DNA from: Marsupella aquatica
Lineage: Eukaryota > Plantae > Marchantiophyta
Reading direction: 5' to 3'
Length of the DNA stretch: 64,000 nucleotides
NCBI GenBank assembly: GCA_973895155.1
Contig: OZ316895.1
Coordinates: 1,502,412-1,566,411, forward strand
Shown: one piece after another, positions 11,001-50,608 of the stretch
Position numbering within the stretch: the first letter of the stretch is position 1
Layout of the letters: every line of letters begins with the position of its first letter
Notes under the pieces: generated by a model
Told to the model about the DNA's origin: nothing
The model's database searches: none
What the model saw: only the letters and a program-made list of their open reading frames with translations
Position numbers and translations under genes: made by a program

Positions 11001-14000
11001 AGTCTTACGATGTTCATTCTAACGAAGAGTGCGTCTATTTCGTGTGCACAGCAAGGTCCCTGCAGACTTTGTCAATCAGATAACGGACAATGCAAATCCT
11101 CCTGCTCTGTTACTGGTTTTGCGAGGTTAATACCTTCACAGCGGTCTTCAACTTTCTGCCCTGTTTTTACACTCTGCGCAAAATATGACATCTTCATTAC
11201 GCGTGTTTAGGTTCTTAGGCTCTTAGGTTCTTAGTGGGATTTCATAAATAATTGTTTTGCAATGCAACTTAATTGCTATTGTGAATGTCCAGTTTTGGAC
11301 AATTTATCTATTGTCGCCCAACTGTTTGAATTGTTTTGAATACGTGCAGAACTGGCCGCGAAGTTTGAATTGGACCAACGTAATGGAAAAGTTTCAGAAC
11401 CAGATGTCGAGTTTTTCCGGACCTTGTATCCTAGACTTAAAGTGTGGTTCAACTGGTTCAACACTACCCAAAATGGTTAGTAGTTTTAGAGAGACAAGAT
11501 GATTTTTCTTGATGGCAGTTGAGGGTGTCAGAGTGCGAGGGGCTGGGTTGTTTAATTTTCTGGGTTACTCAATAGAATTCAGACAAACATCAGCATGCCA
11601 AATAATACTGACTTGTTATAATGTTGAATGCAGGGAAGGAGCCAGATTCGTACTACTGGCGAGGGAGAGTGGATACTGACGAGAAACTTAATCCTCCGGT
11701 GTGTTTCTCACAGCAGCCATGTGCCATTTGTGCTCATCAGAGTGTTTTGAGAGTGGACCTTTGGGGATGCTCCTGGGCTGGTTTGTAGTTTTACACATAT
11801 CTTGAAAGTATGGGGACATTGATGGACTTCTGATGGAGGTGCAGAGCTCTGCGTAGTCTAATGCACGTACAGAAGAATAATCTCGTAACAATAGATTGAA
11901 TTTGTCTTAGTCTTTGACCTCAGGCATGGACGACTATCCACGGGCTTCTCACCCAAGTGACGATGAGCGTCATGTTGATCTCCGCTGCTGGATCGCAAAC
12001 GCCTCGGACACTATGGCTTCACTTGCCCGAGTGGCTGGAGTCCCACATGAAGTAAGAATCGTTTCTATCTTCTTGATGCAATATTCGGCGTTGGACTCAA
12101 ACTTTGAAGAATGTTCGGGAATGTAAAGGGAAACGCAGGTGGTGAGGAAACTGAAGTCGTTTTCAACAAACACGATTAAGTTAAAGTTTTGACTGTCGCT
12201 GGATGTTTTCGTTCATAGAGTAGGTACACGTGCATCTTCCTTTTACTTCGCTGATCAAGTTAGCTTGATATGGGTTTTGGGTGTCCCAGGAATATAAGGA
12301 ATATGAAATCACAGCAAGGAAGCTCACGAATTTGACTCGGCTCAATGAAGTACGAATGACTCTCCCCGCACACTGCCAAAATGGGCATCGCTTGCTATTC
12401 TTCTGAATTTATTAGGTAGTGCAGTCTGATTGGGACAACTTATTGGAGTTGTATCAGTTTCCTCCTACAAAAATAGCTTATTCTCTTACGTGGATGGGTG
12501 TAGCTGCATTTGGACCACGATACTGGTCGTTACTATGACTATGGAAATCATTCTGAGAAGGTACGCCTACAATCAGAAGCTTCAACATCAGAGTGGTTTT
12601 GACAGTAGAAATTACAGTACTTCCTTAGAACATTGTGAACGTCTGTACCTCGTTTTTATCGGAAGTACTATATCGTGCACTAGTTAGTTCTTTCCCTCAA
12701 GGTTTCGCAGATTAACATGTTGCAATGTCTTTTGTTATATAACTGGAACTGAAGTTTGAAAATGGTAGACTTTTGTAAGATGGATATCTGAATGAATATT
12801 TGCCTTTTGGAGCTGACAGGTGGAATTGCGGACGACGATATCTCGGGATCCAATAACAGGTCTTATCACCATGGCTTCACACAGAGTTGTACTAGAGCCA
12901 CCAAAGCTGGGCTGGGTTCCTCAGTTTGGTTACAACAGCTTGTTCCCGTTTCTCATGCACATACTTCCTCCCGTAAGTATGTTGCTGTTGCTGCCGCTAT
13001 GTGTTTCGCACCATGAAACCGGAAACATTTTGGCTATTTAAGCATATTATATCGTCTTATTAGACGGGCACAGTTTCGATCTAGTTTGGAATATGGCTGG
13101 AAGGCTTCCTCATCAGTGATGAAATTTGGATTGGCAGGATTCCCCTATTCTTGGGGATCATTTGGATATGCTGGACGATCCAAATTTAATGTGGACAAAA
13201 TATGGACTTCGGTCTCTCGGAGGCACAAGGTATACTTGATTTGATACACATAGGGACGTGAGAAGAGAACTCGAACTGGTAGTCGTTCTAACTTCTTAGG
13301 CTGTGGGGACTGTTATCAGGTGATTTCAAAGTCAAACGAGAGTAGTTGGCATTCCTTCTCTAAACAGCTTAATGTTGGCCTGCTGCAGTTCTATATATAT
13401 GAAAAACAATTCTTACTTTGAGGCGCCATACTGGAGAGGACCAGTCTGGATAAATATAAATTATCTCCTTTTATCTTCTCTACATGACTATTCTCAAGGT
13501 ATTCGTCTGATCTGATTTTCCAATCAGGTGTTAACGATTATCAGGAAAGATTCTTTGTTTCTAAGTAAGTTGAGAAGAGGTGCGAGTTTTGTGTTGGAGT
13601 TGCACTCTTAGCCGCCACAGGATAACTCTAACTCCCACATCTCAGAGCTGAACTTTCCTTGACGCTGTACCTTCTTCCTTAGCTTCTGCACTTTCGTTTG
13701 CATGACACAGAGGCAGGTCCATACAATGAGAAGGCCACTAATTTGTACCAGAAGTTCCGAAAAAATGTGATCAGGTATTTGTGTCTTCCTGAATCCTTGA
13801 CGGCAATGGTATGCATCGTTGCATTGATAGGTCCCTGCCTGTTATGTGAGTTTAGGGGCATTAAGAGCTGAATCATTCAGAGCACCAACTTTGTTGCGTC
13901 GCACTTGTGAGATTTGTCCCAACAGAGACAGTCCACTGAACAGTTGTTGGAAGTTCGGATTTATTTATTGAAAGTAAGCAACTGGATTCAATGTTCTGAG

Positions 14001-14156
14001 ATGCAAGTGGATTCCAGGAATATTGTTAAGCAGTATCAAGCCACTGGGTATATATGGGAGCACTATGATGAAGAATCTGGGGGTATAGGGCAAGGAGTGC
14101 ATCCGTTCACAGGGTGGTCTTCCTTGGTGCTTCGAATGATGGCAGAAATGTTTTAG
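5011..14156 (+). CDS. GCS1: Mannosyl-oligosaccharide glucosidase I-like (GH63) type II membrane protein, 24 coding exons, divergent paralog-like
   Basis: Exons read with GT-AG junctions and a continuous frame: 5011-5112, 5281-5757, 6491-6564, 6781-6928, 7066-7196, 7377-7536, 7858-7944, 8189-8257, 8741-8825, 8943-9025, 9276-9386, 9556-9680, 9821-9928, 11052-11125, 11350-11475, 11634-11698, 11911-12051, 12290-12349, 12504-12560, 12820-12972, 13138-13229, 13389-13498, 13711-13774, 14018-14156. Motifs: N-terminal SSRRGR (Arg-based ER signal-like), [118 protein letters not shown]. The first exon and start codon (5011, 5071 or 5365) are less certain. Confidence 0.93.
6955..7058. repeat. ~53-bp tandem duplication inside a GH63 intron
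   Basis: CAGT(A/C)ATTCGATACCGAATGCC(G/A)TCTCTGATCTGGATCTGGATGGAACA occurs twice. Confidence 0.85.
9998..10100. repeat. Intronic inverted repeat (hairpin) with an internal duplication
   Basis: ATTGCTACACTCATCACTCTCATGAGC (from 9998) is complementary to GCTCATAGAGAGTGATGAGTGCAGCAAT (ending 10100). Confidence 0.7.
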
Positions 14157-15124: not shown

Positions 15125-16935
15125 AAGGTCCCAAATGAATCTAAGTTATCCTTAAATTACTTACATCCAAAGTTCATAAATCAAAGTAATAAAATCATTT
15201 GCATTTGCCATATACAGTACCATTAGCCATATACTTAACATATATATAAGAGGGAAGTGTCCAGCCCCTGCTTATACAATGACACTCACTTCACGCCAGA
15301 TTTCTTTAGGATGACATCAACAAACAAATTTTAATGGTGGCTTTGGGTAACGCATAGCTTTTTGAAAATGCCAGGTTACTCTAGAATTATAGGAGAAAAA
15401 CAACTTTGTATGGTGGCCGCCTAGCTTTTTGAAAGGTAGGTGTGGTTTAATAAATCTAGCAAGATCCAAAAGTTCATAAAAAGGTCAAAGAAATAAATTT
15501 TGACGAAAATAATATTCTGAGAATCGTTTGCATTCGTGGCGAGAAAGAGAAACTACGCCACTGTGCTCGTCATCATTCTGGCCTGCCCTGTCCTTTGACA
15601 AAAGCGCACGTGGCGCCACCCTGCTCGTCGTGCTGTCCTGGTGGCTGATGAGTACCCTGCGAATGTTTTTCCACCTACCCTGACTCTGGTTAGATCCGGG
15701 GCACCCAAAGGCATGCCTGCCTACTTGCCTACCGTAGCGGAGGCTGACCCGTACTGTACATCATACATGGTGCCTACGGCGTGTGTCCGTGACTGGCCCC
15801 GCCTTGCCTGCCCTGCCCTTCGTCGGGGTGGGTTTCATGGCCAGGGGGTGGGGGGTGCGGGGTGCGGGGTGCGAACACTCCCCCTCCCACCCTGTGGTCC
15901 CCGAGGTACCGCACGGACGATGAGGAATTTCGGCTCCTACGGTAATGACCACGTTCAACTTTATATAGGTGGCTTTTGTTAAAAGCTTGAGGGATATTTT
16001 CGATGCGTGGTTGAAGAGAATTCTAAATAGGTTGATGTTAACACTGACTTATAGGTGTGTAGCTTTGCTTTTTGAGTTAGAGAATGAAGTGAGGCACCCG
16101 AGAACTCATCTTGGCAACAAGACCCAAGCTCCTCTAATGCTTGCAGTAGACCCATAGTACGTTTTAGAGGCAGACCTGTGCTTGGGTGATTTTTTAGATT
16201 TTAAAAAACAATTGTGAGACCCCACATAAAAGGAACAGTCAGTCATAACATTTGAATCTAAGATCAATGAGTGGGCTACTCAAGGGGCTACCACATAGCC
16301 ATGCCACTCTGGGCTATGCTTGGGTGACTTTAAGATCCGATTCATGCTATGTTAATTTTAATAGTGGACCCATGCTCGGCAGATGTGAGATAATAACCCA
16401 AACTATTTGCAAGAGTCCTATCAAACCGTATTTCATAGTTTAGGGGAAGTTCTCTACCTCACAATTGACAGGACTCAATTTAAGCGTTCACTATATGGGA
16501 GATCTCATGGAGGAAAGATGGGCGAGGTTATAGATAATCATAAATAAGTAAAACAGGGACACCAAACTCCAATACCAAACCCCACACAACAAGATAGAGC
16601 TAAAAGTTGGGGCAGGTTCGAGATTTCTGAGGTCATAGTTATCTTGTACCTCAATTTCTAGAGACTTCTAGTCCCCCAACCATCATGCATGCGAGGAGTG
16701 CTGGCGTGCATCTGTCACTCCTTGTTCTCGTAAAAAGTGGGCCCATCTTTAATGGATCAAATCAGACTTTACGTAAGCCACTGTAAGTTCTGAAGACTAC
16801 TTACGTTATTATTCAGAAAACCAAACTTTGAGAAAAGAACAAATTTACTGGAAAAAGCCAAAAGAAAATAACAAGATGGAAACAAAGAAACCCAAACAAG
16901 CTAAAAATATCTGCCACCTTAGCGTTGCATGGACA

Positions 16936-17206
16936 CAAGCCATGGGCAAGCACCCCTTCCACACTATGTTTGACAATGGACAATTCCACATTCATTGGCG
17001 GTCCATGAGGAAAAGGTATGGGCAGGCAGTCGCCCCCTCCCATATTTTTGACAGCATTTGACCACAATTTGACTTTGATTAAGTATAAGAAGGGGGGGGG
17101 GGGGGGGGGGGGCATGAGGACAAGGGATGGGCAGGCAGTCACCCCTTCCACATTATGTTTGACAACACTTGACCTCAATTTGACTTTGATTAAATAGAAA
17201 TGGGGG
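16936..17206. repeat. Degenerate ~110-bp tandem repeat with a poly-G tract
   Basis: ATGGGCAGGCAGTC.CCCC.TCC...A.T.T.TTTGACA.CA.TTGACC.CAATTTGACTTTGATTAA occurs twice, plus one partial copy. G-run at ~17092-17112. Confidence 0.75.
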
Positions 17207-24700: not shown

Positions 24701-26589
24701 TTACAAAATATATTTTACTTCTACAGCATAAAAAGCGTCAAATAGGCAGATCTCTTGTCTTCCTAGAGTACTAGGAAATACATATGCTAGGGCATGATTA
24801 GGTCGCACCCTTCCAATGGCGGGCACAAACATAGAGGACACAAGAATAGGGACGGGTCAAAACTTGCTAACTGACAAGTTATCGAAGTATCTGCGACACG
24901 TGGACGGTAGGAAATCAAGTTGGCCTAGAAATAAATAGTCATTAATATATTAAGTAGTGTTGGTGGAAAGTAGAAAAATTTCATAGCTAACATTCTAGTA
25001 ATATTCTTAGATTTGTATATAAAACACTGATTTCTTAGTGTCTGAATCTTTTGAAAGTACCAAAATAAAATCTAGAGAAATTATATTGGGCTTTGTGCTA
25101 TCATTTGAATAGAAAAATATATATTGCTTTCAGGCGCAGAGAATGGATGAACCTGATCATCATCCCCTATATAGTAATTAAGCATCACTTAATTGGATTG
25201 ACAGTCGATTTAATTATGGATCATATTTTTTTATCAAATGCATGGCATGTTGTTGCTCACCTCAGAAGTTTCAATTGCAAACATGAACAGGAGGTGTTAG
25301 GCAAGAAACAAGCACGACTCTTTGTGATTGGGGCAACGCCTGAGCAAATATTCACACCCAAGAATGATAATACAATGGTAAATTGACAATTAATCTGCCC
25401 AATGACAAAAGGAGCCAAAAAAGGAACTGCTTATATCCATATAGTTAAAATATATAATTTATTTATAGTTAGTTTAGGAATGTTTTGAGCATTTTAATGT
25501 AAACAGTGACTTTGCAGTGAACGCAGTATTTTGTAAAATTGAAAAATAATGATAATAGGAGAACATGTATTAGCTTCATATATAACACTGCAGAAGGCAG
25601 AAAATGCCAAATAGGACTCAGACATGATCCCAAAGTCAATACAACCCAATGAAGGGGAGAAAAAGAGGAAAAAGGACCCCAAGAAAAGCAAGCCAAGGGG
25701 ATTAAAGCATTTAAGCATACTTAACTAAGGGGTCTACAACCTACTTGCGCTAGCTTATGTCAGTAAGTTATTTCTCTCCTGGTCCATGCCTCACAGGTTA
25801 ATAACAGTGAGAATATTTTGGGACGTTGCGATCAGTCAATCATCTTTCTCATGAAAGTTTGATTCCGAAACCTAGAGATGGCTCAATGCAGTTGTACGTG
25901 TTAAGCTCAGAGTTAAGCTGACAATCTAACAAGAATAAATGGCCATTTTGATGATGTAGTAGTAGTATTCAACTAAGTGATTGAAGTTTATATACCAGGT
26001 AAAAAACAAAGTACATTGAAAGGCAAGGAAAAGTGGTCCAACTTAGAAATAGAGGTCCAAAAAGGACTGTCAAAGAACGAAAGGCTTCAAACCTGGAGAT
26101 ACCATACCAAAAACCCAATAAAGGGGGGGGGGGCAAGGAAAAACATGGGAGTATAAAAATGCCCAAGTGCCAGCTGATTTTAACAACAAAAAGACTGAAA
26201 ATCCAAGTAGAGATTTGGAGTAAATAACATGGACTAGTCATGAGAAGGAATTTGACTAGGATCCCCCTAAAACTAACTATCTCAACCCTATGACAAATAG
26301 GGAATGTCTCTCAACCCTATGTAACCCTATGTCTTTCGACCTCTTTTTCTTTTCATTGTACTCTGTTTTTTTCCTCGTTAATAAACTTTGGTGGAATTCT
26401 CTCTAAGTACATAATGAAACTAACACAAGCTGCCAAAAAAACAAGTGAGGACCCAAAGTGAACTTGTTGAAATAGCAACAACCATATAGAACACTAAATG
26501 AGTACACCTAACCATTTTGATTCCAGTCTGCGTTAGGACATGATTTCAAGCCTTCTAGGGTGAGCGAGTGAGTGGGGGCAATTAGATTA

Positions 26590-27234
26590 GGTGAACTCTT
26601 CCTGAAGCTGTTCCCAATCTCCCCGCAGAAAACGATGGATACGAGAGGCAGTCTCACGATGACCCACGCGACCACCGTGACTAGGGAGGGTAAGAGTCCA
26701 CTGTGGAAAAAGCATGAGTAAAGACCAATAGGAGACCTCGATAGGATGCGCCAAGATAAGCTGCATGAGTTGCAACAAGGATGACCGAACTAATGGGCGC
26801 AACGCTAGTGGGATGTGGTTATAAAGGCGAGGTCTAATGTACCCTGGATGGTAGGCTAGAAGGGGGTCTAGAGAGCGAACCCAACTCCATACCTGCTCGG
26901 AAGCCTCCAAGGAAGGAGGGGCAGAGCTAACTAGGTCAAGAGGGGGCTGGGGCTGGGATTGGGCTTGCTGGCGACGTTGGCACCGGCCCCGCCCGCGGTG
27001 ATGAGGAAGGGAGAGACCAACCCAGCCACACTCAGGACAAGTATGCAGGGGACGCTCGTCTGGGGAGGGAGCAGGGAATGACTGGACATGAGGTGGGGGG
27101 GAACCGACGTGGATGAAGAGGCCGGAGGGGGATCCTGGAGGGGTGGAGGGGAATGGGCTGGGGAGAGGAGCCAGGGCATCGATGGGGTGGGCAGTAGACT
27201 GGGGGGACTAGCAGAACATCGGGCATGGGGTCAT
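26590..27234 (-). pseudogene. Inverted N-terminal ORF segment of the CRE-like element
   Basis: One frame with a single TAG (27208-27210): MTPCPMFC*SPQS...RPLHTCPECGWVGLSLPHHRGRGRC (Zn-finger-like)...SYWSLLMLFPQWTL...GGRVGHRETASRIHRFLRGDWEQL. The last motif is typical of the region just before RT in CRE-type ORFs. Confidence 0.65.
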
Positions 27235-28388
27235 CACGAAGATGAGAGAGATCCAATGAAGAAGAGCAAACACGAAGGCGACCACGAGGTGGGGGGGAGG
27301 AGGGGGGAGAACTGTGTGGGGGCTGGGCGCTTGCCCCGCGCCAACACTCTCAACGTAGACATGACAGGTCGCAACCCGATAAAAGCAAAAGCGCATCAAG
27401 AAGCGACAAAAGGCCCAACCAAGACATGTGAAAAGAAAGGGAAGGCTATGGAGAGAGCCCACCGCGTCAAAATCCGAGAAGCGGCGCCACCGCTAGCCTA
27501 GAAAACCGTTGAGCACGTGCAGGTACAGCCGGGAACAAAGCTGGAGCTCTCGTCGATGTGTCCGTTGAGGAGTCGATGCGAGTGAATATCTCTCCGCTGA
27601 TTTGAGCGTGCTGCTACAGCTCCCAAAGACGGTGGAATGCAAACTGGTCCACTAAACTTGGCTAAAATCACCTTGTCAGAACTGAAGAAGAAAGGCAACC
27701 ACCAATCGGAGGAGAAACGTGGCAAGACAGGAATGCTCCAAAGCTGATCAAGGGAAACCGTCACCAAAAATGGAGGAGTAAATCAGAATCGTAATCGGAG
27801 CCGAAAGTGGTTGATATGTCACCAAAAGGACCGTGGTAGGGATAGATGTTGCACTCCCGGACAAGAGAAATCACATGAGAATGCCGGATTCCGTGAACGA
27901 GGAACTGCTACAGGACCCCAAAGCTAATTGAAAGTGAGAACGGTGGAAATTGAAGAAAAAACGTGAGAGCTAATCAAAGTCCAATCGGGGCAATAGGAGA
28001 CCAATTGGACCGCTCTTGGGATCAATCTGATGCTCTCGGAGAAGAGCTATACAAAGCACTTGAGAAATCTGAAATCCGTGAAAGATTGACCGAGATATGA
28101 CCATCGAAAGGAAGACGAAAATCGCAGAAAAACGACTGAAAAATGGCGAAAACGAATGTGACCATAAGTATGTCGATACGACACCGTTTGGACGTGTTTT
28201 ATATCGATTTGATGCGCCTCGGCAAGAGCAAGCTAATGCAACTGAGAAAACTGGATTCCGAGAAAAACTGAGTGCGGGAGGGTAGTCGAAGTGGCGCAAA
28301 AACTGTGCTACAGACTGAACTCCATAGCCAGGAGCTCAAAGACCTAAAACCTAATCTAATTGCCCCCACCCACTCGCTCACTCACCCT

Positions 28389-29321
28389 GCGTTACCTTCA
28401 TTCCAGGAGTTTTTATCCTTGGACCCCGTCCGTCTTCAGGCAGACCTTGCTGGGCGTATGCACGCTTTCACCCTTTCCAACAACCTCACCGAGGCACCTG
28501 ACACGGACCGAGCTCGGATTCTTTCTTCCGGAGGGAAGGGCGCAGGAGGCTGGCTTCAGGCCAATCCAGTCATTCCTCACCTGCGGATGTCTTCAGCGGA
28601 GTTTGCGACAGCCATGCGTCTTCGTATGGGCTTGCCCCACCCACTTCTTGCTGGTTTGCCTCCTACTTGCACTTGTGGGAAGCCTTGTGATGCCACAGGT
28701 GTCCATCTTCTTCGATGCAGTTTGGGCGGCGAAACCATTTTTGTTCACGATGCTGTGAGAGATGCGACTGCTCAGGTTCTCTCTGGCTCTTTGGTCTGCG
28801 CGCGACGGGAGGTGGTGCTCGAGTTACCTGGTCCTCCATCACAGCGGTTACGGGTGGATCTTACCATGGTCCGTGACGGTCACCGTACTTTGGCAGATGT
28901 AGTGGTGGCCAACCCATTGCGCAATGACATCATTGGGACAGCGGCAACAACGACAGGGGCAGCAGCATCACGAGCAGCAACAACGAAGGAGGCCATATAT
29001 GCTACACGAGCGTCATCTGATAGCTTCCTGCCCCTTGCTCTTGAGATATTTGGGCGTCTCCATCATCAGTTCGACGGGCTTCTTCACCAAGCTGCTCGGG
29101 ATGTTCACGGCCGGATGGGTCCCACCGGGCCCCCGCTATCTGTTTTGACCACACACTTTCGCCAACGCATTTCAGTCACCTTACAGCGTGCTCAAGCTCG
29201 GGCCATCTATCGTCGATCTCTGACAGTGGGTGCTAGTGTGACTCCGCAGCGGCTAGCCCCCCTCGAGGACATTCCTGTCCCACTTGCCAATCTAGTTTCG
29301 ACACTTGATGTAGACCACTAG
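28389..29321 (+). pseudogene. C-terminal CCHC + restriction-like endonuclease (RLE) domain of a CRE-type retrotransposon, 5'-truncated
   Basis: ARILSSGGKGAGGWL, FATAMRLRMGL, CTCGKPCDATGVHLLRC (C-x-C-x8-H-x3-C), VHDAVRD, RVDL, LADVVV, KEAIY, FLPLALEIFG and RISVTLQRAQA appear in the standard CRE/R2-type RLE motif order. The frame is uninterrupted. Confidence 0.88.
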
Positions 29322-37636: not shown

Positions 37637-39060
37637 AAAGGACTGCAATACGGAAGCATCACATTGCACATGATGTCAATATCAATGGGCAATGAGGTTG
37701 CAACGCTATATGGTACCCAAGGCCTATCTACTCCCTCATATTGGAGTCACAAGACCCTCACAAGGTACATACTTATCATGTGTTGTGTGTGTGAACCCTC
37801 CATTGCTACAGTGTTTGCTGCATGCATATTTCCTTCTATCGATCATTAGGTCCATTAATCACATTATTGAATGCTGCCAAATCAACTTAATGGTGAAATT
37901 TAATTTAGGGCCTATTATCCTCCAAATTGCATTGATAATGTACTTAATTATGCATCTATGGGCAATCTGGCCCGCCATCTGGGTTGATATGGCACTGATT
38001 CATTTTAAATTCAAGAGTGAATCCCATTGGGTAAAGTTTGACACACCCCACTAATGCATCATACAACTCAACCTTCAATTTTATTGTTGAGAATGGCCCA
38101 GTGACACTTTCATATGTGAGCTATTTGTTTTGTGCTCCTCTTGAACTCACTCTGAGATTATCCTCTTGAACTCGGTCTGAGATCAAGGGCTAATTGAGTA
38201 ACATGTTGGATGGATGTAGGTCCTCCCATTGAAGTCTAGATAAGAAAGGACACTCCTCGAGATTGTGTGGATGCAATCCAAATCCAATATCATAAACATA
38301 CTCAACTTGAAGAGTTGACTAACAATATCCAACAACGCTTGCTCAGGCTCGCATATTGCTTCAAAAGACCCCACCAATCAAAAGATACCACTTCGATTGT
38401 CCAATAACACCACAACTCTAGCATCCTTACAAAAATGGCACATCACGTGGGACAAAGCATAGGGCCCGTTTAATAGATAATATATAGTTTTTGAGGAAAG
38501 ACTAAAAATTATTTGTTTAGTAACAATAGTAAGGGCATATTTAATTTGTAGGCTCACTCTTTAAGAACAATACCTAGGGCTATATATGTAATTTTTTTTC
38601 TCATGCTTGGGCCATTTGTGGGACTAGGTACACACGTGGTGGGAGGTGGTGCTCAATTTTCCTGGTCCTGAGTAGCAATGATTACGCATTGATCTTACCA
38701 TGGTCCAAGATGGCAAATGTACCTTAGCTGATGTTGTGGTGGCCAACTCTTTGTGTTAAGACATCATTGGAATAGGAAAACACAGGCATGGGCAGCAACC
38801 GAACGGACAACAACAAAAGAACACTAAGCAGTTTACAGCACAAGAGTCATAAAACAATTTCTCCCCTTTGCTATCGAGATATTTGGGAGGCTCCATTATC
38901 AGTTTGATGGGCTCCTTCAAAGGCAGCTTGAGAGATGCAATGACTGGAACCCAGACTGGAAGGTTCCATTGGACCACCACTATCCATTTTGACAACAAAC
39001 TTTTGATAACATATTTCAGTGACATTAAAGTGCCAGAGCTTGAGCCATCCATTTGAGATC

Positions 39061-39380
39061 TCTAGCCATGGGTACTGTCTAGTACACCTCAAGAGAGGCT
39101 TGCCCCACTTGTGGACTTAGTTATAAGACTATATATGCCTTGCAAGAGATGTTGACTATTAGCTCATGAGACCATTGCACTAGATGTGTATCTAGCCATG
39201 GGTACTAGTGCACCTCACGAGAGGCTTGCCCAAGCCACTTGTTGCCCCACTTCTAGACTGAGTTATAACACTAGATGTGGCAAGAGATGTGGACTATTAG
39301 CTCATCACACCATTGTGCTAGACTAGATGTGCATCATTTGTTGATCACATCATTAGCTCATCACACTATTGCACTAGTGT
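39061..39380. repeat. Degenerate ~130-bp tandem duplication plus partial copies
   Basis: TCTAGCCATGGGTACT...CACCTCA.GAGAGGCTTGCCC...AGTTATAA.ACTA...GCAAGAGATGT.GACTATTAGCTCAT...CCATTG occurs twice. Confidence 0.8.
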
Positions 39381-40046
39381 ATCTTGATCTTTTAATTTTT
39401 TTACACTTTCTAGGCTTTTGAGTTTTGCATTCATCACACTATTCTAATGGGAGATCTTTGATCTTTAAGGTTTTCCTCGTCCTAGGCTTTTGTGGTTTGC
39501 ATGTGCCCTATTCTCTTGGGTGGGGGGGGGGGGCGTTTGTCCTCCCTAGACCCCTTTTCCGTTTATTCCCTTGTACTGTGTTGGGTCCTTTTGAGAAAAA
39601 AATGGTCCTTTTTCTGTCTTTATGATTTCCGATAGAATGATATCCATTTCAACTTCCCTACATGACTTTTCTGTTATTGCATGGGCCTCTCTCTGTTGGC
39701 TGCACTTCCTCAAGTCTGTTGGAGCTTTAGGATTTGGCTATAGTAGTAGAGGAAGATTTATCGTTACGATACGATTTATTTATATATTTATTTAAGTTAT
39801 GGCTGAGGGTGGAGTTCTCTGCATGCACGGGGGTGTGCTACGAGCACAATCGTACTCCCAGTACCACCATAGCCTACTGTAGCCATGCAGTTTGTTTTAA
39901 TTGCCGCTGCCTCATAGATGAGTGACAATGTGACATTCTCCCCCAAAATAAGGCCAATTGCTTCGTCGACTCGGGACATAACAGTCCGCCATAGACACTT
40001 GACCTCATAGTTGACTAAGCAAAGTGTCACCCTTGTGGTACAGTAG

Positions 40047-40232
40047 CTGCTGGGACCTCTGCTGGGACCTCTGCTGGGACCTCCATAATCTATAACCACC
40101 GGAATGGGTGGGCCGCGTGGCCCCGCCGTCCTCGCACTCAATTGCCGTGGTACGTTCCCGACTATCACTTGACTGTCACTGCTCCTAGAAGGCAATTTCT
40201 GAATTTCATGCTCCTGGCCTTCTGGTATAAAT
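40047..40232 (+). promoter_or_regulatory. Candidate promoter of the GT4 gene: 3 x 12-bp repeat and TATA box
   Basis: CTGCTGGGACCT x3 (40047-40082), then a GC-rich patch, then TATAAAT at 40226-40232. A pyrimidine-rich acceptor TTCTCGTGCCAG ends at 41179, just before the ATG, suggesting a 5'UTR intron. Confidence 0.4.
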
Positions 40233-41215
40233 GTCAGCACGAACCTCTAGCCCGGCACGCATTGCTCAAACTTCACCCTCGAATGCCTTAGCTGTTTAGT
40301 GTTGACGCCCTGCCTAGTACTGTCTTCTGTCTGCTCGACCATCACACCACCCTTTTGCGCAGCACCGTGCATTTTGCAAGCTGCCGTGAAGTTGAAGTGC
40401 ATCACAAAGTACGAGTTCAGTGCTCAGTTGCGGACTGTCTGTCCTCTCCCCGTTTCGAGACTTGTGCGGGTTGTCCCCTAGTTCCTAAAGACCTCAATCG
40501 ACCTCACTTAGTTGGGCTGTCTTGTCTGTCCTGTCTGTCTCGACCACGTTGCAGAGCTGGAAGGTTGTAGCTCGTCCGGGACTCTGTTCATAGACTCTCA
40601 AACTGGCGAACGACAATAGCTGAGTGGTTGAATGTCTTGACCACTTTGCAGACCTCGAAGGTTCTTACTACCTGGTCTGGGACTATCTAGAAGACTCTGA
40701 CTTACAACGCAGCTGAGTGGTCAATGAGCTGCACGTCGTCATAAATCCGAGCCGAGCTGTGGAGCGGACGCAATTGTCACTCGAATTGTCAGTACCAAAA
40801 CCTCCATAGTAATTCTGTTTCAATTCAGAGTGCTGTCGTAGTGGCTTTTATCTGTGATCCGAGGGGTCGGATTTTTGAAATTGAATCCACTGTAGTGTGT
40901 GTATGAAGGGACGCACCATATTAGTATTTTTTACGAGCACCAAATGCTGTGTCGGTGTAAGTACACAAATTTTGGATGTGCCGTGCTTTTAATTGCTTCG
41001 TTTCGTAAGGCCTGAAGGCAATGGTATCACGCTGTTGCTCGCGAATTGAAGCGGACTGTATTTGACGTATGTCGAATTGTTCCTGCCATGTGCAGATTGC
41101 CTTGCCTAGCTCTCGCACGTAATTCTCGTGCAATCGCCTGCTGTTGTCCGACCGTTGCTACTGTTCGTTCTCGTGCCAGCTAGGACCGACCCCCCCACGA
41201 TTAACTGACAGCAGC

Positions 41216-42379
41216 ATGGTGCAAGAAATCATTCGGTTAAGAGAACCGTCGAGGGAATACGGGCGGCTCAGAATTGTCGTTCTAGCTCCATCGGAAGAAC
41301 CAGTGCCTCCACGTACCTACGGTGGCTCGGAGCTTGTGGCCTACAACGTTACCGAGGAGCTCGTCCGCCGTGGTCACGAGGTCTATCTCATCGCAGCCGG
41401 TACGTCCACAACAAGCGCCATCCTTGTCCCGGTTGCTGAGAAATCTTTTAGAGAAGTGTACGCAAACAGTCCTCTGAAGAACAGTCCGTCAGATTACCAA
41501 GCGCTGCGCGATTACTGGAATGTGAAATGCTGTGTGGAAGCAACCGCGATCATCCGATCTTTGAAGCCCGATCTCGTTCACAACCATGTCGACTGGCTCG
41601 GCGTCGTGCTTCAGAGTCTCATGCCGTGCCCGATGATCACGACGGTGCATAACCTCATACAATTCGAGACCCAGAAACGTGCAATGACTGAGAATCCGAA
41701 TGGGAACTTCGTCTCGATCAGTAATAACCAGCGGACGACCCTTCCTGAAGCCAACTGGGTTGCCACAGTCTACAACGGCATCGACGTGAACTACTTCACG
41801 CAAGGTAAAGGTGATGGTGGCTATTTCGCATTCTTGGGCCGCATTTCTCCGGAGAAGGGGTGTGCCGAGATTTGCCGAATCATTCGTAGCAGCAAGAAAC
41901 ACCGGCTGAAAATCGCAGCCAAGATCGACGCGATGAATATGGACTACTACTTGAAAGAGGTTAAGCCACTGATCGACGGTGACCAAATCGAGTACATCGG
42001 TGAAGTGGATGTCGCGGGTAAGAACGCATTCCTCAAAGACGCTAAGGCTCTGCTTCTCTGGCTCAACTGGGAAGAGCCCTTCGGCCTCGTTGTCGCCGAG
42101 GCCAACGCCTGTGGCACTCCTGTCGTCGTAAACCGACGCGGTTCGATGCCCGAAGTCATTCGCCCAGGCGTCAACGGCATTCTCGTGAACACCGTCGAGG
42201 AAATGAAAGAAGCGCTCGACAAAGTTGACCAACTTGATCGCCCCAAGTGCCGAGCTTATGTGCAATCTCGCTTCGATGTGAAACAAATGGTAGACGGCTA
42301 TGAAAAACTCTCTCGCACCATCGTCGGCAGCTCGTTGGAATCGGACAATGCTAAACTGATCCCAAACGATCTCTTCTGA
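41216..42379 (+). CDS. Bacterial-type glycosyltransferase family 4 (GT-B, AviGT4-like), intronless CDS, ~387 aa
   Basis: First ATG at 41216. N-terminal LRIVVLAPSEEPVPPRTYGGSELVAYNVTEELVRRGHEVYL, then PDLVHNH, ITTVH, FVSISNNQR, TVYNGID, FLGRISPEKG, EX7E motif EEPFGLVVAEANACGTPV, and RGSMPEVI. Many C-ending codons, no introns, no stops. Confidence 0.95.
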   Translation: MVQEIIRLREPSREYGRLRIVVLAPSEEPVPPRTYGGSELVAYNVTEELVRRGHEVYLIAAGTSTTSAILVPVAEKSFREVYANSPLKNSPSDYQALRDYWNVKCCVEATAIIRSLKPDLVHNHVDWLGVVLQSLMPCPMITTVHNLIQFETQKRAMTENPNGNFVSISNNQRTTLPEANWVATVYNGIDVNYFTQGKGDGGYFAFLGRISPEKGCAEICRIIRSSKKHRLKIAAKIDAMNMDYYLKEVKPLIDGDQIEYIGEVDVAGKNAFLKDAKALLLWLNWEEPFGLVVAEANACGTPVVVNRRGSMPEVIRPGVNGILVNTVEEMKEALDKVDQLDRPKCRAYVQSRFDVKQMVDGYEKLSRTIVGSSLESDNAKLIPNDLF

Positions 42380-44169
42380 TCGAGCGTAATTGAACGCAAC
42401 TCGTCAATTCAACCCAAGCCGTAACCCGAGCGTTGCACATATCCTAGCCTGCATCCGTCTGTCTTATGACACGTATACGTCGATCCACACATCTGTGCCC
42501 AGATATCCTCATGATCATTTTTCCGATTGTGAATCCGATTGTAAAATATTACTGTCAACGTATTAAGCAGCCAAGAGTTCCGGGTATTGACGCATTGAGC
42601 CCTTGGCCGCGATGAGCTTGCTTGTACAGTAGGTGCAATAGATAATCAACACTGACAACACTTTTAATGCATGCGAGTTGATCGACGTAACTGGGCAGAT
42701 TCATCCTAAGCAGCACCATTCATGTTGACGATTCACAACGTTCGCAATGAATGCAGGTGTGCGATCTGTGACCGAGTCTGTACATAACTGATTATATAGA
42801 AGGTTTTTGCCGATCATAGCTAATTTCGGAAATGATTAAAAAAAACACGGAAATAAAGTTTGTACCTTCAAACTGTTTTGCTGACTCCACTGTGAGTTTG
42901 ACGGTTGTTAATTTGTTCACCATTGATGGATATCGATAATTTTGCTTGCATGCGCCTTGTAGCTCACTGCCGATCTGTGGAACAGCTACCTCTTGAGTCA
43001 TCGATGGAGATTCTCAGTTGTTCAATTCAAGCTTTTAATAGCTGATCATTGCGGTAAACTGTACATTGCTCACCGTGTTTCCGGCTGTAATCATGCGACA
43101 CTTCGTTCAGTGTAGACATCTGGGTTGTGATGACTTGCATTAAGTGGGTAAATGTGACGAGACATACATGATTGTGGTGTTCGATTGGTTCCGGTGTAAT
43201 CATGCTTGCATCCGCCTTGCAGTTCTACGGCTGGTCAGCCCGACCAGTCCAACATCCGTCGTAATTACTTAACACAGTATCCCAGTCACGCGGGGACTCA
43301 GGAGACCCGCTCGATTGCTCTCGTCTATCTACAGGGTAAGGAAAAGGGCTGTGAAGGACTTAAGAAATCACATCGACTCGATAGAAAGCTGCTGGAATTC
43401 TTTTTTGATATGCCTTGTAATTGACTTACAGATGATCGAGTGAGTACTGACTCTCTTCTGATTCCAGCTGTCCCGATAACCGAGAGTCACTGTATTTTAT
43501 GACTAAGGGATGCCTTCTGTACAATCAGAGAACAGGGTAAGCATCAAGGCTATTGTTTTTGGGTAATGGATTTAAATCGACATGCATTCATTGAAGTTAG
43601 CTTTTCAGGCTTTTAGTTTATGGTCCATGAAGTGTAACATCAACTGTCGATTGAAGTCGTCGAGCATCTTGTCACAAGTCTTCGAACCAGCTCAGGTCAG
43701 CTGTGTACTCAATAATTATAGATGTTGGCTTTGTCGGCACGAATGATCAAGATTTGCAGACTTGTTGTGGGCGGTCATATGGAGATAAGTTGGAAGGGCA
43801 GTGCAGATACTACTTGCGATCGGTGTGAGACAGCCGTGCAATTGACGCAACAGGTCGAGGCTTCTATATACTTAGGAAGAAGGGGATGTGTTTACCTTGT
43901 TGCATTTCCTTGGTCCCGGTAATGCGCAAGAAATTCAGAGTAAGGAACTCGGAAGTTTTGTGTTCAATCGATGACTCCGTCAAAGGAGCAATTTTGATAT
44001 CGTCTTTGCTATGGGATCAACTGCTGTAGGCCATACGATTATACACTGGTATCCCAATTTAGCTTCTGACCTTTCAATGGGAAAAATTAGCAAGAGCTTA
44101 TTCAGCTCTCAAATCATCCCTTCTACGAACATCTGAATATTGAACGTTAAAGGTGAAGTCATCTTGTCG

Positions 44170-47530: not shown

Positions 47531-50500
47531 TTAAACACAGGGCAGACTCTTTTTGCACGATGAGCTTTCTAGATTACGCTCCTCGATGTCTTCTGTACAC
47601 AATTCCTGCAAATTCCAAGAGAACGAATATGACTCCAACAGAAAGAAAACGAATAACACATCAACTTAATGAGTAGCAGCAATTTTCTACTTAGGTATTA
47701 CATGTAAGATCTTCGGGGATGACCAACTTGACTACCCTACAGTTTCTGGTTGTTCTTAAACAATACAACCAGTAAGAAAATTACCTCGTTAACGCACATA
47801 TTCGAATGAACTCTAATCAGACATATTTCTGTTCAAGCTGGAAAGTTGTAGTTACAGGCGAAGTAACTTGCCTGGGGTACGGCACAATCTGCGTGCCGAG
47901 GATCCCAGAGAAGGGCGCAGGAACATTCCCACTGATCGTCTGGCACTATCCCTACTGGAGCCCTGAAATGAGGCATCCACGCAACAGCGCAAACAATTTC
48001 ATCCTTCAGTTGCGAGCGACATGGCTAAATTTACAACAAAATTGCTAGATTTCAATGTTTGGCACTCTTAACTATGAAGCCTCTTCTGCGGTTTTTATTA
48101 TAACCTCCAAAAATGATCCAGCGGCCAATTACTGACTAGAAACCTTCAAATACAAGTCCAGGAAAACTCCCACCCAGCATAGCGTGATATCTGGATGATG
48201 CTCCTCAGTAGTGTACTATAAGGTTAGATTGGACATTGCATGCAATCCACAACCCCACTCAATCGAATTATCGGCGGAAGGCCCTTCTCGCAGGTGAGAT
48301 GATGCAATTCAACACTAAGGTCTTAGCTTAGACCTGATTCCACACGAAGCATACGTTCAGGAAACGTGAGCAACACAAGATTTAGTTCAAGCTCGTATCT
48401 GACGACTTCATGTAATCAGCCTATCACCCAAAGTCGTCTTTGTAACTAGATGTGAACTAGGATTGAACCTAAAATTTCACCGTCTGTTTGACCTGTCACA
48501 GACTCAACCTTCTTATCGTCCCTTCAGAGTGAAATGCGTCCAAATACCGTCTTGGACTTTTTGAAAATTCTAATCGATAATAGAAGACTTACCAACCGTA
48601 AGGAATACTTCACTACATATCAATCACAAGTTGTCATGAAGACAAAGCCTTAGTACATACGAGCATTTCAGACGTATTTCTGATAGATAAGGACTGTTTT
48701 GGAAAAACACCTTCTCCATTTCCCACAGAAGATATCTTTTTCTGCGGTTGAGCCGTCAGGACATATCTCGCCTTCCTCGAACAAAACAAGAGTGCACTGA
48801 ATCCAATTTTCTTTCGAACCAGGTGGAAGCTGCATAGGAGGCAAACAGCCTTTAGGCCATATATTCTGCAAAACAGGCACCAACAATCACATAATTACAA
48901 GAACAAGAACAAGAGAATTCCAGGACTCTTAGGCAAGAGATAAAGCCATTTCCCAGTAGTTGTACCTCCGGAAGAGAGAACTCGTCCTAGCTGAGATCAA
49001 CCCAAAGTGGAGTAAGAGGAACAAGATACAAAATGAACCCATACATTCGCTAAATTGTATTCTGCAGTCTCTTGTTCGAGTCGTTTCTCCTCGCTAGTGA
49101 GAGGAATCTCCTCTCCAAAACGTTGAGCAGTCTGTGCTCTGAGAAACACATAAGATGTGCCATCAGTGACTACGGTATAGTCGGCCGATATAAACATATA
49201 TCTTCGTTCGACACGTGCAGTTGTCAATGAAAAGGAGTAATTGGGTTTACAGTGCTCACAGGTTGTCATGTAGGTCGACCTCATCGACTATGCCATTCCA
49301 CTCTGGAACATCTGCTTGGAATTTGGGTCCAAGTCGCACTTTCATCCTTCGACCATTGCTCATACGTAACAATTCTCTCTCAACTCGGCCAATGCGGGAA
49401 TCTTCCCGCCACCAATCCTTAGGCTTTCCTCCAGCATGAGAGTCACATTGTTTCTGACTTTTTCTGCACATCTTCCGTTTCCTCTTACATGGTCGGCAGA
49501 GCCATTCATCAACCCGTGGAATGATTTTCATTCGAACGTTTATGCAACCCATGTGAAAAATCTGCTCACAAGAGTCACAGATGAGGGAGCTTGATGCCTC
49601 TTCTCTTTCTCCACAGACATTGCAGAATTGCACATTCGCTCCATCACCAACAAAACCGGGATGCGGTGCTGCAGGGCGCTTGTCGATAGCTGATCGATAA
49701 AATTTTCCCACATTAGCGGCAAAACTCTTATCCTGTGCACTTTCGGTTTCCCCCTTCGTACCACCACGATGCTGACCTAACCATTCTTTCTTCTTTGGAC
49801 AGAAGGCGTCTGTAGAACCTCCAGAAGAATGCCTTGGAGGCAAGTACTTTTCTCTGTCATGGGAATACGATGGTGATTCACCGATATCACTGTTACCCGT
49901 GAGTACCCCACTTGAATCAAAATCCGAGCTTGGCAAGGACTCTTCCGAGCATTCGCTTTCCTTCGCCAAGGGAAGATCACTGGATTGCCTACTCACACAG
50001 TCTGGAGAATTTTCATCCAAAACATCCTTCGAATCCTTGACAGAAGCTGAATCTGCTGGAGTTGTCAACCGTCGCCTTTTCAATTTATGGACGTCGTCGG
50101 CCTCAATCAAAGCCCTCAACGCGTGTGCTCCTAGATTTAAAGGTAATTTTGCTTCAATTTTTTCTACAATCAAACGAGTAGATTCCCCTCGACAGCAATT
50201 TCCATGCTGATCACCACCTGAATCCTTCATAAAATCAGACTCGGCCAGCCTTGCCTTTACGTCTTTGCTTCGTACACTCTCAACCAATCCTTCCTTTACT
50301 GCTGAAGTAGACAATTTCAAGTTCGGCAATATTTCAGGTCTGTTAACCATGAAAGAGGGACTTTCAGAATTCTGATCAATGGCAGTTACCTGCCACTGTC
50401 TTTTGAATCTAGGCACATTGTCGGTCTCCAACAGAGCCCTCAGTACATGATGACTCAAATTTAAGGATATCTTTGATTCGGATCTTTGAGAAACTGCGGC

Positions 50501-50608
50501 TTGGCTAGTCATCTTGAGTTTCTCATGTGAGCCTGTCGGCAATGCTGGCCGGCAGTGCCTCCCTTCGGTCCTTCTGCTAATAAATATTGCTCGGGGGACT
50601 TGATACAT
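47531..50608 (-). CDS. PHD finger + ELM2-like + CW-like zinc-finger chromatin protein, 5 coding exons
   Basis: Exons 50608-49260, 49138-49045, 48865-48711, 47962-47872, 47605-47531 splice in frame. PHD CNVCGEREEASSSLICDSCEQIFHMGC...WLCRPC (C4HC3). ELM2-like VRLGPKFQADVPEWNG. C-terminal NWIQC...CGKWRRAPVGIVPDDQWECSCALLWDPRHADCAVPQEL is typical of the plant PHD/ELM2 family. The last intron uses a GC donor. The start could alternatively be MTSQAAV (~50512). Confidence 0.88.

What the first reader, a model, noticed from the sequence alone, without database searches (positions are those of the whole stretch)
41216..42379. Intact bacterial-type GT4 (AviGT4-like) glycosyltransferase embedded in a plant chromosome: HGT candidate
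Seen in the sequence: an uninterrupted, intronless ~387-aa ORF with many C-ending codons, between intron-rich plant genes and plant TEs. It has eukaryotic-looking upstream signals (TATAAAT at 40226, acceptor-like CAG at 41179). Established: the N-terminal APxxExVPPxxYGGxExVxxxxTEELVRRGHEV signature with GRISPEKG and EEPFGLxxxEA is characteristic of a prokaryotic GT4 subfamily (AviGT4-like), not of the plant GT4s SUS, SPS, DGD or SQD2. Inference: a domesticated bacterial gene, possibly with an acquired 5'UTR intron, making an unknown glycoside or compatible solute.
Basis: partly seen in the sequence, partly recalled or inferred. Interest (0 to 1): 0.8.

Follow-up and report, generated by a model that had tools for sequence, protein, structure and literature searches.

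The report
Liverwort sugar enzyme from tiny bacteria
A plant genome, likely a leafy liverwort's, holds an intact bacterial-type sugar-transfer gene whose nearest relatives are in ultra-small Patescibacteria (CPR) bacteria, so it was likely acquired from them, and it is predicted to add glucose to sucrose to make protective oligosaccharides, as its best-studied cyanobacterial relative does.

Summary
The 387-aa GT4 ORF is real and plant-resident. One contig spans it with its flanks without a difference, a second organism carries it with flanks, and Calypogeia fissa has four copies (85-91%). No other named plant protein was listed. In three trees the plant copies nest inside a Patescibacteria-rich clade; grouping with a cyanobacterial homolog is rejected (AU p=7e-7). 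Genomes labelled 'Pseudomonadales' or 'Vitreimonas' in that clade look like mislabelled CPR. RNA-type contigs of relatives support a 5'UTR intron at about 40788-41095, not ending at 41179.

The best characterised relative is cyanobacterial glucosylsucrose synthase TeGSS (E=1.5e-69), not AviGT4 (7e-10). Bacterial relatives usually sit beside an SPS-like gene, the same pairing as tll1590/tll1591. Donor-side catalytic residues are kept; acceptor-side residues differ. Best reading: a likely CPR-derived cytosolic UDP-glucose:sucrose glucosyltransferase making stress oligosaccharides. Odds: HGT 0.97, CPR donor 0.75, sucrose acceptor 0.5.

Bryophyte HGT is common and CPR-to-ciliate transfer is published. 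I found no CPR-to-land-plant case or plant glucosylsucrose synthase in print, but a key supplement was unreadable.

The parts
40226..40232 (+). TATA box (TATAAAT), likely the core promoter
   Evidence: Sequence; an RNA contig of a relative begins at 40271 (X7). Contigs cannot fix a start, so this is inference.
40260..40787 (+). Non-coding exon 1 (5'UTR), start approximate; three very short uORFs of 2, 2 and 6 codons
   Evidence: X6 contig 17 and X7 contig 23 cover parts of it at about 85-90% identity; uORFs listed.
40788..41095 (+). 5'UTR intron, GTCAGT...TGCAG, 308 nt (alternative donor at 40776)
   Evidence: X6 joins 40665 to 41097 with 112 letters between, matching 40666-40787 less a 12-nt stretch that relatives lack. 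X7's 30 letters before 41099 match window ~40749-40775. DNA-type runs X5 and X10 hold the skipped part.
41096..41215 (+). 5'UTR part of exon 2; includes the CAG at 41179, which is not used as an acceptor in the two RNA-type runs
   Evidence: Read through by X6 and X7 contigs.
41216..42379 (+). Intronless CDS, 387-aa GT4 glycosyltransferase of the TeGSS-like group; key residues Y35, H145, R209, K214, W285, E287, E295; 17-residue non-hydrophobic N-terminal extension
42380..42790 (+). Probable 3'UTR, end not fixed
   Evidence: X6 and X7 contigs run past the stop to 42611 and 42526; an X6 piece matches up to 42786.
38643..39131 (+). Decayed copy of the repeat ORF at 28458-29321, about 1.1 kb upstream of the TATA box (context, not part of the gene)
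   Evidence: tblastn 35% identity, E=5e-13; direct repeats D1 and D3.

Best explanation
This is an intact GT4 glycosyltransferase gene in a plant chromosome, likely a leafy liverwort's, that was likely acquired from a Patescibacteria (CPR) bacterium and is predicted to transfer glucose from UDP-glucose onto sucrose in the cytosol, making glucosylsucrose-type oligosaccharides that would serve as stress protectants. Shown here: intact ORF, plant flanks, four copies in Calypogeia fissa, nesting inside a bacterial clade, and conserved catalytic residues. Shown in relatives only: a join that skips a GT-AG-bounded stretch of the 5'UTR. Inferred: a single transfer into an ancestor of Calypogeia-like liverworts, gain of a TATA promoter and 5'UTR intron, then duplication. 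In bacteria the gene usually lies beside an SPS-like GT4 and often a HAD phosphatase, which would make its sucrose acceptor. The plant would need only this one gene, since it makes its own sucrose and UDP-glucose (established knowledge). Donor sugar, acceptor, linkage, location and physiological role are untested. Odds: bacterial HGT 0.97; CPR donor 0.75; sucrose acceptor 0.5; alpha-1,2 series as in TeGSS about 0.35.
For: Residence: X1 contig covers 38500-43047 with 0 differences and the same depth as its neighbours; organism B runs (X3, X4) hold CDS and flanks at about 97-99%. Four C. fissa proteins lie on contigs of 3.8-24 Mb. Identity falls from 76-92% (plant-type) to at most 59% (bacterial). 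Trees: plant clade 100/100, inside a 24-row clade at 100/100 holding the named Paceibacter, Parcubacteria, Roizmanbacteria, Microgenomates and Patescibacteria rows; same nesting with 81 rows and 251 rows, with 0 of 80 metagenome homologs inside the 145-row clade. AU rejects plant+cyanobacterial homolog (p=6.6e-7) and the 19 inner bacteria as a clade without the plants (p=0.0096). Of the 116 bacterial-type hits, 8 carry an organism name and 6 of those are Patescibacteria. All 9 genomes behind L001-L009 are 0.9-1.7 Mb with no uL30 hit (0 of 9; controls 13 of 14), and S5 abuts L15 in 8 of 8 where S5 was found. Function: best solved relative is TeGSS (PMC9909042, abstract through Discussion read). 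Y18, R179, K184, W254 and E256 map to Y35, R209, K214, W285 and E287, invariant in 8 of 8 plant-type rows. An SPS-like gene lies in 8 of 9 genome loci and directly upstream in 7 of 7 further loci. Its best solved match is TeSPS tll1590 in 2 of 3 tested, and it keeps H158, E331, P332, R178 and R249. HAD gene in 7 of 9 loci. No hydrophobic segment (max KD19 1.55). 8 of 8 checked CDS differences in relatives are synonymous.
Against: Acceptor-side residues named for TeGSS are not kept: W10 is E27, Y97 is W127, R117 is L147, T119 is Q149, N122 is about T152. The plant clade also differs from its bacterial sisters there: R to L/V at 128 (R in 104 of 115), G to N at 146 (G in 101 of 115), P to L at 147 (P in 99 of 115), on a long stem of 0.49. 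The nearest named genome (G001, Parcubacteria) has no SPS-like match at E<=1e-25 (draft genome). For 1 of 3 partners tested the best solved match was MshA, and the partner has K for R105 and lacks R253. The two nearest bacterial sequences (P0008, P0010) have no taxon name, and their sister position is moderately supported (96/82, 81, 0). The inner clade looks rare: only G001 scored below 1e-100 among 401 genomes of its phylum. No ABRE or DRE motif in the 1 kb upstream. I found no report of glucosylsucroses in liverworts. Splicing was seen only in relatives, and X6's RNA status is a guess. The 8 synonymous sites are the best-supported rows of a cut table.
Confidence: 0.45

Rival explanations
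1. Same CPR-type horizontal origin, but the enzyme was retooled in liverworts to glucosylate another acceptor, such as a polyol or a specialised metabolite.
For: Plant-specific changes cluster in acceptor-side loops (positions 126, 128, 146, 147) on a long stem branch. No named plant protein was among the 120 listed of 328 hits for the SPS-like partner. Paralogs at 85-86% identity in C. fissa suggest diversification. A related GT4 group glucosylates a pterin.
Against: TeGSS binds sucrose loosely, through only three residues, two of which (Y18, R179) are kept. Sucrose is the simplest acceptor available without the partner genes. The pterin enzymes match far more weakly (E about 1e-19 to 1e-21).
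Confidence: 0.33
2. Horizontal transfer from a non-CPR bacterium or an unsampled lineage that shared this gene with CPR; function as in either reading above.
For: The nearest two bacterial proteins are unnamed. The clade is patchy in Patescibacteria and spans several CPR groups, so it moves between bacteria. Four of nine genome records carry proteobacterial names.
Against: Those four genomes are 1.2-1.5 Mb, have no uL30 hit and have S5 next to L15, unlike the E. coli and Caulobacter controls. Successive outer branches are also Patescibacteria-phylum genomes. None of 80 metagenome homologs or the 3 named plasmid homologs fall inside.
Confidence: 0.18
3. Endosymbiotic gene transfer from the plastid ancestor, or transfer from a cyanobacterial symbiont, with loss in other plants.
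For: The best characterised relative is cyanobacterial.
Against: A cyanobacterial homolog is only 39.5% identical, and AU rejects the grouping at p=6.6e-7 (one plasmid-borne Trichormus sequence, not TeGSS itself). No other named plant or alga among the listed hits.
Confidence: 0.02
4. Bacterial contaminant or chimeric assembly.
For: Intronless CDS with GC 53% in a roughly 43% window. No long read was available.
Against: A contig spans both flanks. The gene occurs in other organisms with conserved non-coding flanks, has four copies on megabase C. fissa contigs, and has a GT-AG-bounded 5'UTR skip in two studies.
Confidence: 0.01

Closest known systems
TeGSS (tll1591) and alr1000, cyanobacterial UDP-glucose:sucrose alpha-1,2-glucosyltransferases (PMC9909042; PDB 7FG9, 7FGA)
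   Same: Full-length match (E=1.5e-69). Y18, R179, K184, W254 and E256 kept. Bacterial relatives of the plant gene lie beside an SPS-like gene, as tll1591 lies beside tll1590.
   Different: Different branch (CPR-rich, not cyanobacterial); an insertion around residues 80-108; acceptor-rim residues W10, Y97, R117, T119 and N122 replaced; nuclear plant gene with a 5'UTR intron and no linked SPS; activity untested.
AviGT4 (PDB 2IUY; the identification with avilamycin biosynthesis and the CDD label 'GT4_AviGT4-like' are recalled)
   Same: GT4, GT-B family; weak similarity in the nucleotide-binding half.
   Different: E=7e-10 over residues 203-320 only; no shared pathway context.
Microbe-to-bryophyte HGT genes (PMC12513842, passages read; NAS in PMC12454661, passages read)
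   Same: Intron-poor bacterial gene among plant genes and repeats, restricted to one lineage.
   Different: Glycosyl-, Calypogeia, Patescibacteria and Parcubacteria have 0 occurrences in the main text of PMC12513842; its HGT tables could not be read.
CPR-to-ciliate lateral transfers (PMC13198582, passages read)
   Same: CPR-rich donor clades for metabolic genes in a eukaryote; that paper calls itself the first CPR-to-eukaryote record.
   Different: Recipients there are phagotrophic anaerobic protists known from transcriptomes; here a land plant with chromosomal context and paralogs.
Theanderose of the moss Physcomitrella (PMC3731658, passage read; its glucosylsucrose structure is recalled)
   Same: A bryophyte trisaccharide that accumulates with sucrose under ABA.
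   Different: No moss protein was named among the listed hits, so this gene is unlikely to be the moss enzyme; the linkage is recalled as alpha-1,6.

Membership tests
GT4 glycosyltransferases | PF00534 plus PF13439 domains over cut-off | tested here: met
   69.9 and 53 bits against 26.4 and 28.5
GT4 glycosyltransferases | Conserved His, Arg/Lys phosphate binders and E-X7-E motif (motif recalled; His and first Glu roles from PMC7264703) | tested here: met
   H145, R209, K214, E287 and E295 invariant in 8 plant-type, 115 and 80 metagenome rows
Glucosylsucrose synthase (TeGSS/alr1000) | Full-length homology, best characterised match | tested here: met
   E=1.5e-69; next solved family 2e-21
Glucosylsucrose synthase (TeGSS/alr1000) | Catalytic Tyr18 and Arg179, with Lys184, Trp254, Glu256 | tested here: met
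   Y35, R209, K214, W285, E287
Glucosylsucrose synthase (TeGSS/alr1000) | Acceptor-rim residues Trp10, Tyr97, Arg117, Thr119, Asn122 | tested here: not met
   E27, W127, L147, Q149, about T152 by sequence alignment; Tyr70 and Glu74 fall in an insertion and could not be mapped
Glucosylsucrose synthase (TeGSS/alr1000) | Gene linked to a sucrose-phosphate synthase gene | tested here: inconclusive
   SPS-like neighbour in 8 of 9 and 7 of 7 bacterial loci; none matched in G001 or in the window; the partner's own activity is unproven
Glucosylsucrose synthase (TeGSS/alr1000) | Makes alpha-1,2 glucosylsucroses from UDP-glucose and sucrose | not testable with these tools
   Needs an enzyme assay
CDD GT4_AviGT4-like | Score against the CDD profile | not testable with these tools
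   No CDD library; AviGT4 itself matches at only 7e-10
Plant GT4s (SUS, SPS, DGD, SQD2) | Passes family model cut-off | tested here: not met
   Sucrose synthase 18 of 810 bits and SPS GT domain 34 of 576 bits; no DGD or SQD2 model among the 18 listed
Bona fide HGT gene in a plant genome | Physically linked to host DNA in independent data | tested here: met
   (contigs only; X1 may be the window's own source, X3 and X4 are another organism and study)
Bona fide HGT gene in a plant genome | Nested within a bacterial clade with support | tested here: met
Bona fide HGT gene in a plant genome | Transcribed and spliced in this organism | tested here: inconclusive
   Seen in relatives only (X7 RNA on record, X6 guessed)
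Patescibacteria donor | Sister and outer branches belong to Patescibacteria | tested here: inconclusive
   Named and tested members are CPR or CPR-like; immediate sisters P0008 and P0010 are unnamed

The most novel reading that the evidence does not exclude
A land plant acquired a metabolic gene from ultra-small Patescibacteria, lifting one enzyme out of a CPR sucrose/glucosylsucrose gene cluster and plugging it into its own sucrose pool. Leafy liverworts would then make cyanobacterial-style alpha-1,2 glucosylsucroses, a class of stress sugar that my searches did not find reported for plants.
Probability: 0.3. Interest if true: 0.85.

Novelty: new variant of a known kind. Interest (0 to 1): 0.63.

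Why it matters
Bacteria-to-bryophyte transfer is common, so the transfer alone is modest news. The likely donor is the surprise: Patescibacteria are reduced symbionts, reported as gene donors to eukaryotes only in 2026 and for ciliates (PMC13198582), and my searches found no land-plant case. The gene also makes a direct, cheap prediction: a one-gene route from sucrose to glucosylsucroses in leafy liverworts, testable with a TLC assay already published for TeGSS. If true it adds a new protective sugar class to plants and a portable single gene for stress-tolerance work. The bacterial side suggests an undescribed compatible-solute cluster in CPR.

Tried and rejected
No whole genome is held for the window, so paralogs and co-transferred partner genes could not be sought genome-wide; the window has one copy. 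No structural model was made, so acceptor-site comparisons rest on sequence alignment. The metagenome scan covered 4 of 64 parts and returned only generic 37-43% homologs; they served as outgroups. Viral contigs gave no relative; phage records gave at most 32% identity; plasmid matches were all under 60%, about 39-41% in the 30 listed of 272. The 'shorter' search gave two 83% fragments and one degenerate-looking 68% fragment (P0441), with no named plant among 120 listed of 345. C-ending codons as a donor relic: rejected. CAG at 41179 as acceptor: rejected for the two RNA-type runs. Stress motifs upstream: no ABRE or DRE; one CGCG box, within chance. The roughly 590-aa cluster gene is only tentatively a glycoside hydrolase: 1 of 6 copies scanned hit PF22422, below cut-off, and there was no PDB match. 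Literature searches found no description of this gene. The two main supplements of PMC12513842 were too large to read and may list this family; the one readable file had no hits. Earlier scan findings by sequence and words: none.

Full report
Observation. The ORF at 41216-42379 (+) is open and encodes 387 aa. Pfam places it in GT4. None of the 18 NCBIfam models listed passes its cut-off, including sucrose synthase and the SPS GT domain. The window is eukaryotic: GH63 glucosidase exon fragments lie in order between 6.7 and 14.2 kb, a PHD-finger ORF at 49256-50608, and a repeat ORF at 28458-29321 has a decayed copy about 1.1 kb upstream of the TATA box. Of 210 other stop-to-stop frames of 70 aa or more scanned, none gave a clearly bacterial family.

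It is not a contaminant. One contig of run X1 covers 38500-43047 with no difference and the same depth as neighbouring contigs; X1 may be the window's own source. Runs X3 and X4, of another organism and study, hold the CDS and non-coding flanks at about 97-99%. Calypogeia fissa has four proteins of 85-91% identity on contigs of 3.8 to 24 Mb. Three environmental proteins of 76-92% belong to the same group. The best bacterial identity is 59%. No other named plant, alga or fungus is among the 120 listed of 7986 hits or the 120 listed of 345 short hits. The host is therefore likely a leafy liverwort near Calypogeia; this rests on this one gene.

Gene structure. In run X6 (RNA by guess) one contig covers 40311-40665, then 112 other letters, then 41097-41249. 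In X7 (a metatranscriptome from another study) a contig matches from 41099, and the 30 letters before it match window ~40749-40775. DNA-type runs X5 and X10 hold the skipped stretch. The window has GTCAGT at 40788 and TGCAG ending at 41095, and relatives lack 12 nt just before the donor, which accounts for 112 rather than 123 letters. So a 308-nt 5'UTR intron is likely. The RNA and DNA runs are of different organisms, so a genomic deletion is not formally excluded. An X7 contig begins at 40271, about 40 nt after TATAAAT. All 8 CDS differences shown's cut table are synonymous.

Origin. Three trees agree. With 38 rows (IQ-TREE, mixture model) the five plant-type rows form a clade at 100/100 on a stem of 0.49, sister to unnamed P0008 and P0010 (96/82), near Paceibacter and Parcubacteria rows, inside a 24-row clade at 100/100. 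The 81-row tree and the 251-row FastTree give the same nesting; 0 of 80 metagenome homologs lie in the 145-row clade that holds the plants. The 38 and 81 rows were my picks from the hits; the 251-row set has all hits but only 22 of the 150 hits. AU tests reject plants plus the one cyanobacterial homolog (p=6.6e-7) and reject the 19 inner bacteria as a clade without plants (p=0.0096; this group was named after seeing the tree). Six of the 8 named bacterial hits are Patescibacteria. Four of nine genome records are labelled Pseudomonadales or Vitreimonas. However, all nine genomes are 0.9-1.7 Mb with no uL30 hit (0 of 9, controls 13 of 14), and S5 abuts L15 in 8 of 8. Loss of uL30 as a CPR trait is recalled, and the Synechococcus control also gave no hit, so the test argues against the proteobacterial labels rather than proving CPR. 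Against certainty: the nearest sisters are unnamed, and the inner clade is rare (1 of 401 phylum genomes below 1e-100). I put bacterial HGT at 0.97 and a CPR donor at 0.75.

Function. The best solved relative is TeGSS (E=1.5e-69); pterin glucosyltransferases follow at 1e-19 to 1e-21 and AviGT4 at 7e-10. The nearest bacterial protein ranks them the same way. [quoted passage not shown] Its UDP-side and catalytic residues Y18, R179, K184, W254 and E256 are Y35, R209, K214, W285 and E287 here. The bacterial relatives repeat the pairing: an SPS/MshA-like GT4 lies in 8 of 9 genome loci, a HAD gene in 7 of 9 and a roughly 590-aa possible hydrolase in 6 of 9. An SPS-like gene is directly upstream in 7 of 7 further loci. 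Indirectly, 36 of 85 hits on contigs of 3.4 kb or more share an exact contig length with an SPS-like hit. The partner's best solved match is tll1590 in 2 of 3 tests and MshA in one. It keeps H158, E331, P332, R178 and R249, has K for R105 and lacks R253 (PMC7264703 passages). L007 has two neighbours with S6PP hits. That point, and L007 and L008 in the counts and trees, rest on unpublished genomes G005 and G409.

The case against sucrose. TeGSS's acceptor-rim residues W10, Y97, R117, T119 and N122 are not kept, and the plant clade has further changes at 126, 128, 146 and 147 relative to its bacterial sisters. G001, the nearest named genome, has no SPS-like match. No ABRE or DRE lies within 1 kb upstream. 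No model was folded, so the pocket comparison is by sequence only.

Mechanism. Most likely: a single GT4 gene left a CPR sucrose/glucosylsucrose cluster, entered the ancestor of Calypogeia-like liverworts, gained a TATA promoter, a long 5'UTR with an intron and a 17-residue N-terminal extension, and duplicated. No named plant protein was among the 120 listed of 328 hits for the partner, so the partner was probably not kept; the plant's own sucrose and UDP-glucose would suffice. The protein has no hydrophobic segment and is likely cytosolic. It would glucosylate sucrose to tri- and longer saccharides acting as osmo- or desiccation protectants. All biochemical steps are inferred (sucrose acceptor about 0.5). 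The main rival is a changed acceptor (0.33).

Novelty. Microbial HGT into bryophytes is frequent (1,809 families across 49 streptophytes, PMC12513842 passages). That paper's main text never mentions glycosyl-, Calypogeia or Patescibacteria, but its HGT tables were unreadable and may list this family. CPR-to-eukaryote transfer is reported for ciliates (PMC13198582 passages). Ten searches (listings seen, six papers opened besides the TeGSS paper) found neither a CPR-to-land-plant transfer nor a plant glucosylsucrose synthase. A moss accumulates the trisaccharide theanderose under ABA (PMC3731658 passage), a precedent for this type of sugar in bryophytes. Verdict: a real, lineage-restricted HGT gene; a new variant of a known kind; interest 0.63.

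Noticed in passing
L001-L003, L005-L009, L127-L133, L014-L017, L019, L021: Recurrent CPR-type gene cluster: SPS/MshA-like GT4, TeGSS-like GT4, often a HAD phosphatase and a roughly 590-aa possible (MGH1-like) hydrolase. It suggests a sucrose/glucosylsucrose compatible-solute pathway in Patescibacteria; not searched for in print specifically.
   Followed up: partly
L001, L003, L005, L009 (genomes G406, G407, G003, G004): MAG records titled 'uncultured Pseudomonadales bacterium' and 'Vitreimonas sp.' are 1.2-1.5 Mb, have no uL30 hit and have S5 adjacent to L15; they look like mislabelled Patescibacteria, which would mislead donor calls in HGT screens.
   Followed up: yes
window 5365-14153 (+): Intron-rich GH63 gene, likely ER glucosidase I, an alpha-1,2-glucosidase by family knowledge, 27 kb upstream of the GT4; probably coincidental.
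   Followed up: no
window 28458-29321 (+), with inverted repeat arms 26560-26592 / 28349-28381: 287-aa ORF with no Pfam family, recalled as resembling the C-terminal endonuclease region of a non-LTR retrotransposon; decayed copy at 38643-39131; a 33-nt 97% inverted repeat lies just upstream.
   Followed up: partly
window 49256-50608 (-): PHD-finger protein ORF; its end (VRLGPKFQADVPEW) is recalled as the start of an ELM2 domain.
   Followed up: no
window 16777-17058 (+): Weak TRAPPC13 middle-domain hit (E=0.006), possibly an exon.
   Followed up: no
run X6 laid on window 41200-42600: Several distinct contigs at about 84-94% identity suggest multiple transcribed paralogs in organism C; short protein P0441 looks like a degenerate copy.
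   Followed up: no
window 40043-40082: Three tandem copies of a 12-nt unit in the promoter region; organism B lacks 12 nt at 40047.
   Followed up: no
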